Shown in pieces: positions 7,171 to 54,941 of a stretch of 64,000 nt of DNA. The number at the start of each line of letters is the position of its first letter. The stretch's first letter is position 1. The stretch is taken from NCBI GenBank assembly GCA_964016885.1, contig OZ024755.1, positions 10,912,001 to 10,976,000 on the forward strand, written 5' to 3'. Below the pieces are notes generated by a model. It saw only the letters and a program-made list of their open reading frames with translations, made no database searches and had not been told where the DNA came from. The DNA comes from Eledone cirrhosa (Eukaryota). Both the position numbers and the translations under genes were made by a program.

Positions 7171-7350
7171 TAGGAACGAGTAGGCTCCCGACGGCTGAGC
7201 TCAAGCCGTTTCGACGGCTAATTCTGACCTGAAACGGCTTGAGCTCAGCCGTCGGGTTCCTACTCGTTCCTATTACCCACTCTACTACCCTAAGTATTGA
7301 GTACTTTGGTGCGTTATGGTCCACCTGGTTCCTTACCACATTTCCTTCGT
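7171..7350. mobile_element. Head-to-head palindromic insert in (TA)n carrying a hammerhead 3' half; putative Penelope pLTR fragment
   Basis: 42-bp arms 7171-7212 and 7231-7272 (2 mismatches). Each arm starts GAAA-CGGCT-tgagctc-AGCCG-TC, i.e. stem III plus a GUC site. (TA)n on both sides. Confidence 0.7.
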
Positions 7351-7370
7351 TATATATATATATATATATA

Positions 7371-7440
7371 TTTATTTATTAAAATAACAGATTAAAGTTT
7401 AAGCAAAGAATCGCTGCTTTCACCCTTAAGAGGATCTTCT
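7371..7440 (-). mobile_element. TA-embedded fragment with a non-canonical hammerhead-like fold; same family as 12376-12434
   Basis: Minus strand: AGAAGA-TCCTcttaaGGGT-GAAA-GCAGcgattctTTGC-TT-AAACT; near-identical to 12376-12427. Confidence 0.6.
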
Positions 7441-8120
7441 ATATATATATATATATATATATATATATATATATATATACAGAGAGAGAAAGAAAGAAAA
7501 AAGAAGGAAAGGTAGAAGTATACCTACCTGTATTTCGGTGGATTGGGTGAATGTTCAGCGTCTGCGGCGAGACTCGTTCACCAATCGATAGGAATATATG
7601 AAATTTCTACTATTTTAGGCGCATGGAGTTCCTTTATTAATAAATGGTTTTGTTCTTTAATAAATCTCTCCACCACTCAAAAACATTAATATACATACGT
7701 ATATGCATATATACATATATATTGCACATACACACACACATGCACACACACATATATATATATATATATATATATATATATATATATATATATATATATA
7801 TATATATATATATAGCCCCTTATTGTACAGCCAACCATGTTACTCTTCATTCTTTCACTATATATATATATATCCTACGGAAATATTTTATATATATATA
7901 TATTTAAGTATGTTGATTCCTCTTGTGTAAGATATATTTGAAGGCATTTTCAATTGAGTTTTTTAATATTACATCTGCAAATAGAATGTGAGTATATATA
8001 TATATACATATATATATATAAACATATATATATTTGAATAAAGAAAAATTACTTCACTTGTGGTTGGTATTCTTTAATAATTCAAATCATATATATATAA
8101 TTCAAATCATATATATATAA

Positions 8121-8320
8121 GGGCCCTGGATTGGCAGTATTGGTAGAGTGTCGAACGCCATGCTTTGCAGCAAAGAGTTACTTCCCTTTACGGACTGAGT
8201 TCAAATCCCGCCGATGTTAACTTTGCCTTTCATCCTTACGGGGTCGATAAAATAAAGTACCAGTAATACACTGGGATAATTGCTGGCCTTGTGCCAAAAA
8301 GTAAAAAAGTAGAAACAATT
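8121..8320 (+). mobile_element. tRNA-derived SINE, family A, full length
   Basis: A box TGGCAGTATTGG, B box GAGTTCAAATCC, centre AACTTTGCCTTTCATCCTTACGGGGTCGATAAAATAAAGTACCAG, tail GTAGAAACAATTAT; closely matches copies at 39581, 39781 and 57086. Confidence 0.9.
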
Positions 8321-9364
8321 ATATATATATATATATATATATATATATATATGTTTATGGATCTATTGTGTGTGTGTCTATATATATATATATATATGTG
8401 TGTGTACGAATGTAGGTATGTAATTATATATACTGTATATAAAATGTATTTAAATATTTATGTATGTATATGTATATATATTGAAAAATTTAAGAGTAGG
8501 ATTTTAGCAAATACCGTTCGTTATTTAGTTATAAGTATGCATGCTGCTAAGTACTTATAAGTACTTATAAATAATGGTATATATTATATTGCTCTATACA
8601 AAATGGTATAGAGAAAGGTACAGTAAGAGAAGTTATAGTAAAATGTACCTTTAGGGAATCGTATTTCTTCTCTCTCACTCTCTTCATATATATGTGTATA
8701 TGTGTATAGTAATATGTATGTAAATATACATATACATACATATATACATATACATATACATATGTGTGTGTGTAGTCCAACTCTATATATAACTGTATTT
8801 CTATATATAACTGTTTTTCTGAAGTCAACTTCCATACAAGTATGTAGTGTATATGTATATATACACACACTATGTACATATATATATATATATAATATAT
8901 ATATATATATATATATATATATATATAATATATATATATATAATGTAAATGTATCTATATACATGTGTATCTTTATTTCATTATCTCATTTATTTGTTAT
9001 TTGATGATGTTTGCTCAAGACTTTCTAATCTATGTATAAAGTGGTGAAAATTTTTCGTTTTAGGATATTTATGTAATTATTGGATTTAAATGTTTGTATA
9101 ATTTTATTATGGCTTTAGTAATGTTTTGTTTTGTTTTCTCTTTTTATCGATATTTTTCTTCTAATATATATATATATATATATATATATATATTGTTTTT
9201 TTGCAAACTTCAATTGTTTATTTTAACTGAACGAAATTCAATTATTTCTGATATTAAAATAAAGAACTTGATGTTATTAAACTAACCTTACGTGTTTATA
9301 TATTCTTCAATTTCACGAGAATGTGAGAGAAACATTACAAAGCATATACATAAATGGACTTATG

Positions 9365-9580
9365 TCGGTTTCTACGATGGTCGGGGTTTCAGTCAATTGA
9401 TTGACAAAACAGTCTGTTCAAGAAATTAAAGTTCAAGTGGTTGAGACATGTGTTCTCATACCGTAAATCTCTGAGAAATTCTTGCTCAAGAATATAACCC
9501 ACTAACCCACCGCTTGGAATCGAACTCACTACTTCACGCTTGTGGTATGAACACCCTAACCACAAAGCCTGGACACTTCA
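9365..9580 (-). mobile_element. SINE family B, decayed
   Basis: CTTGCTCAAGAA...GGAATCGAACTCAC...CCCTAACCAC as at 6725-6805; left part matches the tail at 30000-30110 in reverse. Confidence 0.6.
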
Positions 9581-10559
9581 TCTGAGAACATAAGTTATCC
9601 ATAAACACACAATCACACATACACACAGAGACACGCGCATACTCACACATTTACAGAGATGCAAACACAATGCCAACACATACACATACGATTCTGCCAA
9701 TTCACTGCCACTACGCACAGTCTGCTCGTGAAATCAAGGTGCATTTAACAGAATCAGACACCTGTCAACTTGACGTAGTTCTTAGGGAAATTCAGAATGA
9801 TGCAGTGTATGTTACAGCTGGCCATTTCAATGAGAGAAACAACTCTTTTTACGAGAGATGTCATTTAGAACACCGTGAAATAATAGGTCTTACCCTTTAG
9901 CAATCGTGAATCAAACCCCCTAACTAGTAAGCCACATATTTTCACGAAAACATCGCTAAACAATATGTTAACAATATAATAACAATATGATAATATTGTC
10001 ATCTCCATCAAGAAAATCACTCAGACACGGACAGTGTTTACTTTGGCAGCGGTGTATTAAAAATGAAAAGAGAAGAAAGAAATACACTCAACAACTAAAC
10101 AAGCAATTAATAGGTTTTTATAATGTGCTGGAATTTGTAGAAATCGGAAGAATAGTAAATTAGCAAACCTAGTGGCAAGAAGACATACTTCAACTGACAG
10201 GATAGTTGATGAAATATGGAAATTAGAACTGCCAAATGATGATGTTGACCTTGATAATGATGATGATAATAATGGTGATGACGATGATAATGACGATGAC
10301 GATGGTGATGATGATGATGATAGTGGTGAGGATGATGTTGATGGTAATGATGATAACGAGGTTGAGGGTGATAAGGATGCTCTTGATGCTCCACGGATAA
10401 TGATAGTAATAGCTGTCTAGATCTTTGGTTGTCAATTCTTTACATATATAAGTATGTATTTCGTTTCATTTTTTCCGTCTTTACACACATATATATATAT
10501 ATATATATATATATATATATATATATATATATATATATATACAATGGTGTTATACATCC

Positions 10560-53241: not shown

Positions 53242-53307
53242 TATTTTATTATATATATTTCAAGGGCAACCAAGGCAAATTATGGTGCGCTTTCATCAGA
53301 TAAAATA
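53242..53307 (-). ncRNA. Minimal type I hammerhead ribozyme (Penelope type)
   Basis: TATTTTAT-CTGATGA-AAGcGCACCA taatttgcct TGGtTGCcCTT-GAAA-TATATA-TA-ATAAAATA: 8-bp perfect stem I, canonical core, 1-bp stem III with palindromic loop; predicted cleavage after A53250. Confidence 0.85.
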
Positions 53308-53313
53308 CAGATT

Positions 53314-53412
53314 TGTTTTATAAATAAATATTGACATACCCGGAAAAAAAGGGAACTTCAACCGTTAAGGTTGTCTTTTTTTCCGGGTATGTCAATATTT
53401 ATTTATAAAACA
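53314..53412. repeat. Inverted repeat, perfect 38-bp arms, just upstream of the hammerhead
   Basis: 53314-53351 and 53375-53412, 23-nt spacer. Confidence 0.93.
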
Positions 53413-53701
53413 CTGGTTTAACCGCTTTACTTCCCTCCGAAGAAGAGATATTAACTCGAAAATTAAGGATATTTAAATAAATTTAAGGTAAAAGACTAAT
53501 TGTCAACAATATCTTTTGCATTTGCATTTATATTCTATGTCCATACCTGCATTGTTTTGGCTTTACAAATACAAACGTTTATATATCTATGTATATATAT
53601 GTATATATATTTCTGTATATATATGTGTGTCTGTGTGTGTGTGTATGTGTGTATATATATATATATATATATATATATATATGTATATATATATATATGT
53701 A

Positions 53702-54068
53702 TAAAATATGTAGTTTAGAAAGCCACAACAATGCAGATGGGAAATCTCGAGGTAGGAAGTGAGTGAGAAATAGGAGAAAAGTGAAAATTGAGAGAAACGA
53801 AAATGAAAACAAAACAAAGGTAGAAGGGTTACCGTAGTGGAGATTTAATCCCAATATTTCGGGCTTACGCCCCATTTGGGATTAAATCTCCACTACGGTA
53901 ACCCTTCTACCTTTGTTTTGTTTTCATTTTCGTTTCTCTCAATTTTCACTTTTCTCCTATTTCTCACTCACTTCCTACCTCGAGATTTCCCATCTGCATT
54001 GTTGTGGCTTTCTAAACTACATATTTTACACATTTCACAATGCTTCAAGCAAACTTTAACACCCTCTT
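53702..54068. mobile_element. Head-to-head palindromic insert with 153-bp arms in TA-rich microsatellite
   Basis: 53702-53854 is the reverse complement of 53876-54028; the spacer read on minus is ATG-GGGC-gtaa-GCCC-GAAA (hammerhead stem II plus GAAA). Confidence 0.85.
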
Positions 54069-54786
54069 ATATATGTATATATATATATACATGTATATAT
54101 ATATATGTATATGTATATATATATCTGTATATATATATATGTGTGTCTGTGTGTGTGTGTATGTGTGTATATATACATATTAACTTCGAGTATGGATATT
54201 GTCAATCTTATTTAGATTAACTTTGTAAATAATCGTTTGGTTTCCAATTAAGTGATACAAGAAAACGGCTGATATACCCAGGAATCATTGGGTGTGTTAA
54301 TATTGAGACTTTTCAATATACTTTGGTGAATATATCGAACATATCCACAAATTAATGATTAAGAATATTGTGGTTTTGTTGATGTTTATTGTTTTGTTTT
54401 TTCTTGTTTTTTTTTTATATTTTGCTAACTGCTACAAACTGTCATGCAACATTTTCATTGGAGTGGTTTTCTCAATCATGTGCACTTCCTTCAATTATGT
54501 ACACACACGTGCGCACGCACACACACACACACACACACAGACAGACACAGACACACACACTCACACACTCACACAGACCACATTCATTCATATATATATA
54601 TATATATAGTGCAAATTTATACGGGAACAAAACAGAGAGGTAGATATATATATATATATGTATATATATATATATATATATATATGTATGTATATATATA
54701 TATACATATATATATATATATATATATATATATATATATATATATATATATATATATATATATATATATATATATATATATATATA

Positions 54787-54941
54787 AGCAGAAGGGATAT
54801 TCAATTTGTTGGTAATTCAACAAATAGAAATGTATATAACTGATTCAGAGCACTCAACAGTTTTTCTGGAGTATATAAATTTATAAAACACACTTCGTAT
54901 TTTATCTGATGATAGAGTACCAAAATAGAAGCTGGTTGACT
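54787..54941. mobile_element. Rearranged second copy of the 53.1-53.3 kb family
   Basis: 54787-54872 aligns to 53107-53192 in the same orientation; 54878-54941 (TTTATAAAACA...GTATTTTATCTGATGA...ACCA...TGGTTG) aligns to 53325-53265 inverted. Confidence 0.75.

What the first reader, a model, noticed from the sequence alone, without database searches (positions are those of the whole stretch)
7171..54941. Hammerhead-jointed, head-to-head 'twin' inserts targeted to (TA)n microsatellites
Seen: several short inserts of unrelated sequence sit inside (TA)n and share one design, namely two pieces in opposite orientation, both 3' ends running into TA, with the joint at a hammerhead core. At 7171-7350 and 12198-12364 both arms begin exactly at the G of GAAA, followed by stem III and a GUC site. 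At 53702-54068 the spacer is stem II plus GAAA. At 12376-12490, 25632-25755 and 54787-54941 two different tails appear fused head-to-head near a core. Established: Penelope-like elements carry hammerheads in their pLTRs and often insert with an inverted truncated copy. Inference: both ends of a cut TA tract each prime reverse transcription on ribozyme-bearing RNA, synthesis stops at the folded hammerhead, and the two cDNAs are joined. One RNA species gives a palindrome and two give a hybrid. This would be a microsatellite-targeted insertion or break-patching system that generates hairpins genome-wide.
Basis: partly seen in the sequence, partly recalled or inferred. Interest (0 to 1): 0.85.

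Follow-up and report, generated by a model that had tools for sequence, protein, structure and literature searches.

The report
Back-to-back Penelope leader copies in TA
These short mirror-image inserts are back-to-back copies of the front end of ordinary Penelope-like retrotransposons sitting in TA repeats; they likely form when both ends of one cut are extended on the same RNA and joined near the RNA's start, not at a ribozyme, so they offer a large natural test of how these elements insert.

Summary
All six are pieces of Penelope-like elements (PLEs), six families; tail words of three occur 20,319, 17,057 and 3,972 times in G000. (1) The three 'hybrids' are single-family; 1 of 326 head-to-head joints held was cross-family. 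(2) Joints are not at GAAA: 9 of 268 arm ends lie within 2 nt of it. Arms run through the hammerhead region and pile up at an initiator-like A (family A -22, B -25 with a TATA box 30 nt upstream, E -113), so the joint likely marks the transcript's 5' end. (3) The copied stretch is the leader just before the RT reading frame. Two-ended priming survives: one arm ends at a near site, the other at a far site in 276 of 283 classifiable pairs, and arms share subfamily letters in 44 of 47. Inverted truncated copies, one-sided tails and TA bias are published PLE traits; the strict pairing and 5' edge I did not find in print. No RNA data were available to test the start site.

The parts
7173..7230 (-). 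Family A short arm: native positions about -14 (perhaps -18) to +39, counted from the G of GAAA; 3' end at the near start site, running into TA
7231..7350 (+). Family A tail-bearing arm, 0 to +119; 3' end at the far start site, running into TA; lacks the 5' half of the hammerhead core (at -61 in long copies)
7373..7440 (-).
12200..12321 (-). Family B tail-bearing arm, -14 to +107; lacks CUGAUGA, which native copies carry at -19
12322..12369 (+). Family B short arm, 0 to about +42, running into TA
12373..12433 (-). Family D short arm, -25 to +49, with a 15-nt internal deletion
12435..12490 (+). Family D tail piece, +81 to the far end; same family as the arm beside it
25632..25695 (-). Family F tail piece, +48 to +111; stops where the partner arm starts
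25697..25756 (+). Family F short arm, -12 to +46 (stem II, GAAA, palindromic stem III, cleavage site)
53702..53875 (-). Family C short arm, about -15 to +158, includes stem II and GAAA of a degenerate core
53876..54068 (+). Family C tail-bearing arm, +6 to the far end; the tail holds the first codons of the reading frame in tandem copies
54787..54875 (-). Family E tail piece, +69 to +154; stops where family E short arms end (+68)
54879..54926 (+). Family E partner arm, -58 to -13, holds CUGAUGA; cut off at its 3' side, no TA there

Best explanation
These are head-to-head pairs of copies of the leader that lies in front of the reading frame of Penelope-like retrotransposons, one arm ending at a near site and one at a far site, and they likely arise when the element's protein cuts both strands in a TA tract, primes reverse transcription from both ends on the same uncleaved RNA, runs both copies towards the RNA's predicted 5' end and has them joined there. 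Shown: PLE origin of five of six families by a linked reading frame (A, B, C, D directly; F and E share the anatomy, no frame seen for them in the loci held, so strictly four shown); two fixed 3' ends per family; one long plus one short end per insertion; same subfamily in both arms; a sharp upstream edge in A, B, E; copies that span the ribozyme cleavage site. Inferred: a protein dimer, one RNA for both arms, the edge being the transcription start, end joining of the two cDNAs with 0-few nt of overlap or filler, and fill-in by repair. When the template is a read-through or tandem transcript the same reaction would give the classic long element with an inverted end (L091, L092). When the far-site copy stalls at the near-site primer the product has no duplicated part and looks like a hybrid, as in L1 twin priming (recalled).
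For: Family A continues upstream into a 3' region of an RT plus GIY-YIG element with a 650-810 nt inverted end; its RT scores 0.95-0.98 to RT/HTH_animal clusters; family C joins a GIY-YIG domain (Pfam E 0.00028, just under the cut-off). Tails of A, B, C, D run on into the start of a PLE frame in tandem copies (L162, L208, L090, L068/L077/L088, L307/L310/L318). Of 90 consecutive family A tail copies 68 have an inverted partner, 62 of 68 ending at one position. Pairing: 276 long+short, 3 long+long, 4 short+short, 42 with an unclassified end, of 325; in a core-anchored set picked for lacking an exact tail word, 0 of 26 were short+short. Partner reaches further 5' in 23, tail arm in 16, equal within 2 nt in 29 of 68. 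Subfamily letters agree in 44 of 47 typed twins, shuffle mean 15.5, max 25. In family D the tail arm stops within 15 nt of, or 3' of, the partner's start in 7 of 8. Edge: A 96 of 136 ends at -22..-11, 3 at -27..-23, 0 at -99..-28; genome-wide 29,074 exact words reach -14 but 4,368 reach -25; B 17 of 64 ends at -25/-24 with 2 further up, TATAAATA 30 nt upstream; E 6 of 24 at -113/-112. Seven of ten start sites are followed by TA or AT in the native sequence. In vitro, an anole PLE cuts and extends both strands, is predicted to be a dimer, starts at two internal sites that bound the tail, and uses uncleaved RNA (PMC11167929, parts 1-2 of 4 read).
Against: No RNA evidence for the start site. The initiator match was noticed after seeing the edges, and such motifs are common (2.3 per 100 nt; chance of 2 or more of 6 families 0.06, of 3 or more 0.005); E fits only a looser motif. 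C and F have diffuse edges, and most D partner arms are long. In A the edge lies inside the stem II loop, the TATA-like word is 25 nt upstream and differs between subfamilies, so a stop or cut in that loop remains possible. Arm concordance would also follow from two RNAs of one active locus or from gene conversion; 2-3 of 47 twins are discordant and L099 is a true D+B hybrid. Most loci were anchored on tails, which under-samples short+short pairs. The in vitro paper reports no homology at the start site, whereas I see 2-3 nt of TA match.
Confidence: 0.62

Rival explanations
1. Self-priming or fold-back: one cDNA (or an antisense RNA, as proposed for rotifer Penelope) snaps back and copies itself, so the second arm is a copy of the first and is then joined to the other target end at a TA match.
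For: Explains arm concordance (44 of 47) and near-perfect palindromic centres; proposed in PMC3846280 (passages). Short TA-centred tail-to-tail duplications at 25593-25654 and 25737-25818 suggest fold-back synthesis does occur here.
Against: The short arm holds sequence that the tail arm lacks in 23 of 68 family A twins and by 150-250 nt in several D twins; non-overlapping pairs (window D, E, F) cannot be copied from each other; short ends occur alone (7373-7440, L364, L366).
Confidence: 0.14
2. Two-ended priming is right, but the joint is set by something other than the transcript start: later deletion of the palindrome centre, an RNA cut, or a structure upstream of or inside the ribozyme.
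For: Palindromes are unstable (general knowledge); joints vary from copy to copy; A's edge sits in a hairpin loop; C and F edges are diffuse.
Against: Random central loss would not leave 0 of 136 ends between -99 and -28 with a wall at -22; B's edge sits 30 nt below a textbook TATA box.
Confidence: 0.14
3. One reading: synthesis stops at the folded hammerhead core and two RNA species give hybrids.
For: In A, B, F and short D twins the joints do lie inside or at the 5' border of the ribozyme; two window copies have one arm starting at GAAA; one real cross-family joint exists (L099).
Against: 9 of 268 ends within 2 nt of GAAA; a block would fall at the ribozyme's 3' edge, but B peaks at its 5' edge; C and E joints have medians at -80 and -91; the three named hybrids are single-family. 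GAAA joints in A fit a 3-nt AAA match with the partner's end (L009).
Confidence: 0.06
4. The palindrome is one master unit that spread as a whole (MITE- or SINE-like), or is an assembly fold-back artefact.
For: Tens of thousands of near-identical short copies; reads could not confirm the joints at this locus.
Against: Joints differ between almost all copies; arms end at family-specific sites and differ at some letters; most subfamily types also occur in long, frame-linked copies.
Confidence: 0.04

Closest known systems
Endonuclease-positive Penelope-like elements (Penelope/Poseidon and Neptune types), inverted 5'-truncated copy plus one-sided tail (PMC8557442, PMC3846280; passages read)
   Same: RT plus C-terminal GIY-YIG; pLTR overlapping the frame start; inverted truncated copy head-to-head; tail on one end only; (TA)n bias; palindromes at the inverted joint; TATA and initiator-like words in the pLTR.
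   Different: Here most sampled family A copies are leader-only twins of 120-200 bp; tails are 35-90 nt; long+short pairing and a 5' edge are counted, and argue against the antisense self-priming proposed in PMC3846280.
Anole Poseidon PLE in vitro (PMC11167929; parts 1-2 of 4 read)
   Same: Both strands cut and extended, AT-rich target, two internal start sites bounding the tail, ribozyme cleavage not needed.
   Different: In the parts read it does not link this to inverted pairs or say that each insertion uses one site per end; it reports no homology at the start site.
Minimal type I hammerheads of PLE pLTRs (PMC4209133; passages read)
   Same: Palindromic helix III, extra base after A9, U3-A8 core variant (family A); dual motifs on opposite strands 100-700 bp apart were noted there in Schistosoma.
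   Different: Family D has CAGAAGA in place of CUGANGA and family C is degenerate; most short twins carry only part of the ribozyme.
L1 twin priming (recalled, not read here)
   Same: Second target end primes internally on the same RNA; inversion with joint made by end joining; non-overlapping products such as the window's D, E, F inserts.
   Different: Here both start sites are fixed, the second lies 3' of the region that both arms copy, so the usual product is a duplication, and it is the main product, not a side product.
Non-LTR retrozymes (10.64898/2026.07.22.740005; first of 5 parts read)
   Same: Short non-coding PLE-derived units with type I hammerheads.
   Different: Retrozymes are direct tandem arrays with a whole ribozyme per unit; these are inverted pairs, mostly with incomplete ribozymes.

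Membership tests
EN+ Penelope-like element | PLE-type reverse transcriptase linked to the sequence | tested here: met
   A: L091/L092/L162; B: L090, C: L068/L077, D: L310 by frame start and motifs read by eye. Pfam gave no RT hit for 7 of 7 fragments. E and F: no frame seen in loci held.
EN+ Penelope-like element | C-terminal GIY-YIG endonuclease | tested here: met
   C: L070 Pfam GIY-YIG E 0.00028, 21.6 bits, cut-off 22.6; A: motif read by eye in broken copies L091/L092, no Pfam hit. Not tested for B, D, E, F.
EN+ Penelope-like element | pLTR that overlaps or precedes the frame start in partial tandems, with optional tail | tested here: met
   (A, B, C, D); two fixed 3' ends in all six families
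EN+ Penelope-like element | Type I hammerhead in the pLTR | tested here: met
   Intact core in B (24 copies, compensatory stem I pair) and F (23); U3-A8 or C3-A8 variant in A (24); U4 to A variant in D (32); degenerate in C; E by eye only. Cleavage not tested.
EN+ Penelope-like element | Clade placement by RT phylogeny | not tested
   Penelope/Poseidon-like (A, B, D) and Neptune-like (C) are recalled motif impressions; no tree built
Non-LTR retrozyme | Direct tandem units, each with a complete hammerhead | tested here: not met
   Inverted pairs with partial ribozymes
MITE | Fixed internal sequence between terminal inverted repeats, spread as one unit | tested here: not met
   Joint differs between copies, ends are asymmetric
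Twin-priming product | Both target ends prime on one RNA | tested here: inconclusive
   Indirect only: pairing, concordance, stalls at the partner's start
Twin-priming product | Target site duplication or known empty site | tested here: inconclusive
   Hidden by TA; one empty site found for 48 twins, with 18-42 nt of TA-rich sequence in three empty units (L131)

The most novel reading that the evidence does not exclude
The default reaction of a PLE is an asymmetric two-ended insertion: one protein dimer holds one RNA at two fixed sites, extends both ends of a double-strand cut in (TA)n, and on ordinary monomer mRNA copies only the 5' leader twice. That single rule would explain the tail, the inverted copy, head-to-head palindromes and solo pLTRs at once, would make coding copies the rare product of read-through transcripts, and has seeded this genome with tens of thousands of hairpin-forming palindromes.
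Probability: 0.4. Interest if true: 0.72.

Novelty: new member of a known kind. Interest (0 to 1): 0.5.

Why it matters
How PLEs make their tandem and inverted structures and why they favour microsatellites is named as open in PMC8557442. This genome holds very many young copies of at least six families, and their ends give a simple, testable rule (one near start, one far start, both run to a common 5' edge) that fits the only in vitro PLE system and argues against antisense self-priming. It also warns that such short palindromes can be misread as MITEs, microRNA hairpins (Rfam's weak hits) or hybrids. It is not a new class of element and not a ribozyme-guided joining system.

Tried and rejected
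Rfam scan: no hammerhead in the rows shown. Whole-window inverted-repeat tool was swamped by a satellite. DNA search with the family A tail gave nothing because its words are too common; a pattern search replaced it. A genome-wide count of palindromic joints was not obtained; joint statistics rest on samples. No RNA holder listed. Contigs of four runs laid on 12198-12490: no piece spans the stretch, uninformative for these joints. One search folded the wrong coordinates and is not used. The family A reference, 80 has changes at -11..-16 that pile ends at -10, 58 values are used for A's distribution. Motif scan for E cores returned 0 through a pattern error. PDB search of the RT gave 0. A splice acceptor as cause of the edge was considered: AG sites lie 1-9 nt downstream of the edges in A, B, E, but arms keep the bases upstream of AG and no shared exon piece fills the joints. 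Earlier findings of this scan: nothing in 3 look-ups. Literature: ten searches found no paper stating long+short pairing or leader-only twins; subscription papers, older Penelope reviews and supplements were not seen and may hold this idea. PMC12910113 and PMC13282606 (passages) added nothing on structure.
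Full report
Observation. The three palindromes are at the stated places: arms of 43, 43 and 158 nt with 2, 0 and 1 mismatches and spacers of 18, 14 and 21 nt. 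All six inserts are two pieces in opposite orientation; five have TA at both outer ends, the one at 54787 only at its left. Positions below are counted from the G of GAAA in each family.

What they are. Each insert belongs to a repeat family of G000 (A 7173, B 12200, D 12373, F 25632, C 53702, E 54787). Exact tail words occur 20,319 times for A, 17,057 for D and 3,972 for F, with 0 for the reversed controls. L091 and L092 show family A whole: a broken RT plus GIY-YIG frame, a long 3' region ending in the A sequence (L091), and an inverted 650-810 nt copy of that end in front. The RT resembles RT/HTH_animal clusters; Pfam found GIY-YIG just under its cut-off in a family C copy and nothing in the other 6 of 7 fragments. 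In tandem copies the tails of A, B, C and D run on into the start of the frame, so the short inserts are copies of the leader in front of the frame. For E and F I saw no coding copy. Native copies carry type I hammerheads: intact in B (24 copies, one compensatory pair in stem I, cleavage at GUA) and F (23), a U3-A8 or C3-A8 core 61 nt upstream in A (24), CAGAAGA in D (32), degenerate in C. PMC4209133 (passages) describes such motifs, the U3-A8 variant included.

The hybrids are not hybrids. For D, E and F both pieces lie in one row in native copies (L283, L285; L259, L274; L250, L318). The window copies simply lack overlap: the tail piece stops at or 3' of the place where the partner starts. 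Over all loci held, 325 head-to-head joints were within a family and 1 was between families (L099, D joined to B). Only six families were used as references, and some loci came from palindromic queries.

Where the joints lie. I took the first 90 of the 100 listed family A tail matches (of 20,319; all on contig C1). 68 have an inverted partner. Of 136 arm 5' ends, 96 lie at -22 to -11, 3 at -27 to -23, none at -99 to -28, 2 beyond -100 and 3 within 2 nt of GAAA. Genome-wide, 29,074 exact words reach -14 and 4,368 reach -25. Across six families 9 of 268 ends lie within 2 nt of GAAA, after dropping 10 pairs whose partner was a spurious or distant hit; the window's own B and C copies are in that count. 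In B, 17 of 64 ends sit at -25/-24, the 5' edge of the ribozyme, 2 further up and 4 at GAAA; a TATAAATA box lies 30 nt upstream of that edge. In E 6 of 24 ends sit at -113/-112; C has its median at -80; F is spread over -48 to -20. The edges of A, B and the window's D arm fall on the A of a YYANWY word, E on a looser one. This was noticed afterwards; such words occur 2.3 times per 100 nt, giving a chance of 0.06 for two and 0.005 for three of six families (the initiator and TATA consensus are recalled). A stop caused by the folded ribozyme should fall at its 3' side. Instead the copies span the cleavage site and end at or beyond its 5' side. The simplest reading is that they ran to the start of an uncleaved transcript, and that the hammerhead is near the joint only because it lies near that start. 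D. virilis Penelope starts at an initiator in this region, 46 nt before a 75-nt intron (PMC2377424, passages) whose end meets helix I. No RNA run was listed, so this is untested here.

How the two arms relate. Every family has two fixed 3' ends. Of 325 pairs, 276 are long+short, 3 long+long, 4 short+short and 42 have an unclassified end. Tail anchoring hides short+short pairs, but 38 extra stretches anchored on the core and picked for lacking an exact tail word gave 0 short+short of 26, and long+long pairs are not hidden: free choice would give about one per two long+short pairs. Long elements follow the rule too (L344/L345, L351/L352, L348, L371). Either arm can reach further 5' (23 against 16 of 68), which fold-back copying of one arm cannot give without later loss. 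Arms share subfamily letters in 44 of 47 typed twins (shuffle mean 15.5); L144 and L166 are clearly discordant. In D the tail arm stops near or before the partner's start in 7 of 8. Seven of ten start sites are followed by TA or AT in the RNA. 40 of 48 checkable A twins have TA on both sides; one lies in a tandem unit whose empty copies hold 18-42 nt of TA-rich sequence, so at least there the TA came first and then grew.

Mechanism. Inferred: the PLE protein, as a dimer, binds its RNA at two sites in the leader, cuts both strands in TA, and each 3' end primes at one site, helped by 2-3 nt of match; both cDNAs run towards the RNA's 5' end, the second displacing or stalling at the first; their ends are joined with little overlap or short filler and repair fills in. 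An anole PLE in vitro cuts and extends both strands, is predicted to be a dimer, has two internal starts that bound the tail and uses uncleaved RNA (PMC11167929, parts 1-2 of 4). One RNA for both arms is likely but not proven. Rivals: fold-back or antisense self-priming (PMC3846280, passages), 0.14; joints set by later deletion or another stop, 0.14; hammerhead stop with hybrids, 0.06; master unit or artefact, 0.04. Contigs laid on the window did not test the artefact; family-specific, asymmetric ends and varied joints make it unlikely.

Known and new. Inverted 5'-truncated copies, tails on one end only, (TA)n bias and head-to-head palindromes are described PLE traits (PMC8557442, passages). 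These are therefore new members of a known kind. Ten searches found no statement of strict long+short pairing, of leader-only twins as the main product, or of a 5' edge at an initiator; the library lacks most subscription papers, and I saw no supplements. The value lies in making the open question of PLE inverted structures directly testable. Interest 0.5.

Noticed in passing
window 25593-25654 and 25737-25818: Short tail-to-tail duplications (about 17-24 nt) of each end of the family F insert across the flanking TA; the left one shares a rare letter with the insert, which suggests fold-back or an aborted extension at the TA.
   Followed up: partly
   Followed up: partly
window 46395-46811: A 122-nt inverted repeat with TA at both outer ends and microsatellite in the centre, into which a solo family D tail (46592-46686) has inserted; family unknown.
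   Followed up: no
window 2864-3056, 16934-17110, 17715-17806, 35914-36676: Inverted duplications of apparently non-PLE sequence centred on or flanked by TA; may be a separate fold-back process at (TA)n.
   Followed up: no
window 56339-56380: A further CUGAUGA...GAAA core ending in TA; the same sequence occurs in L096, so probably a seventh family.
   Followed up: no
L099:1315-1567: The one true cross-family joint seen: an inverted family D short arm, about 10 nt of D sense, then family B from -78 to its tail.
   Followed up: partly
L077 and L319, upstream of the cores: Families C and F carry a GCGCAYGCGC word about 20-30 nt upstream of their joint zones; recalled as an NRF1-like promoter motif, not tested.
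   Followed up: no
L024, L028, L182, L194: Runs of up to about 17 A or T at family A joints, where the native sequence has three T at the edge; suggests slippage at the template's 5' end.
   Followed up: no
tails of families A, B, D (beyond), E, F: A shared short word of the form TGAG(T/C)(A/G)C lies in or just after the tail in several families; a candidate protein-binding site near the far start.
   Followed up: no
window 49686-51400 and 63508-63989: Two satellite-like arrays in opposite orientation, about 70% complementary.
   Followed up: no
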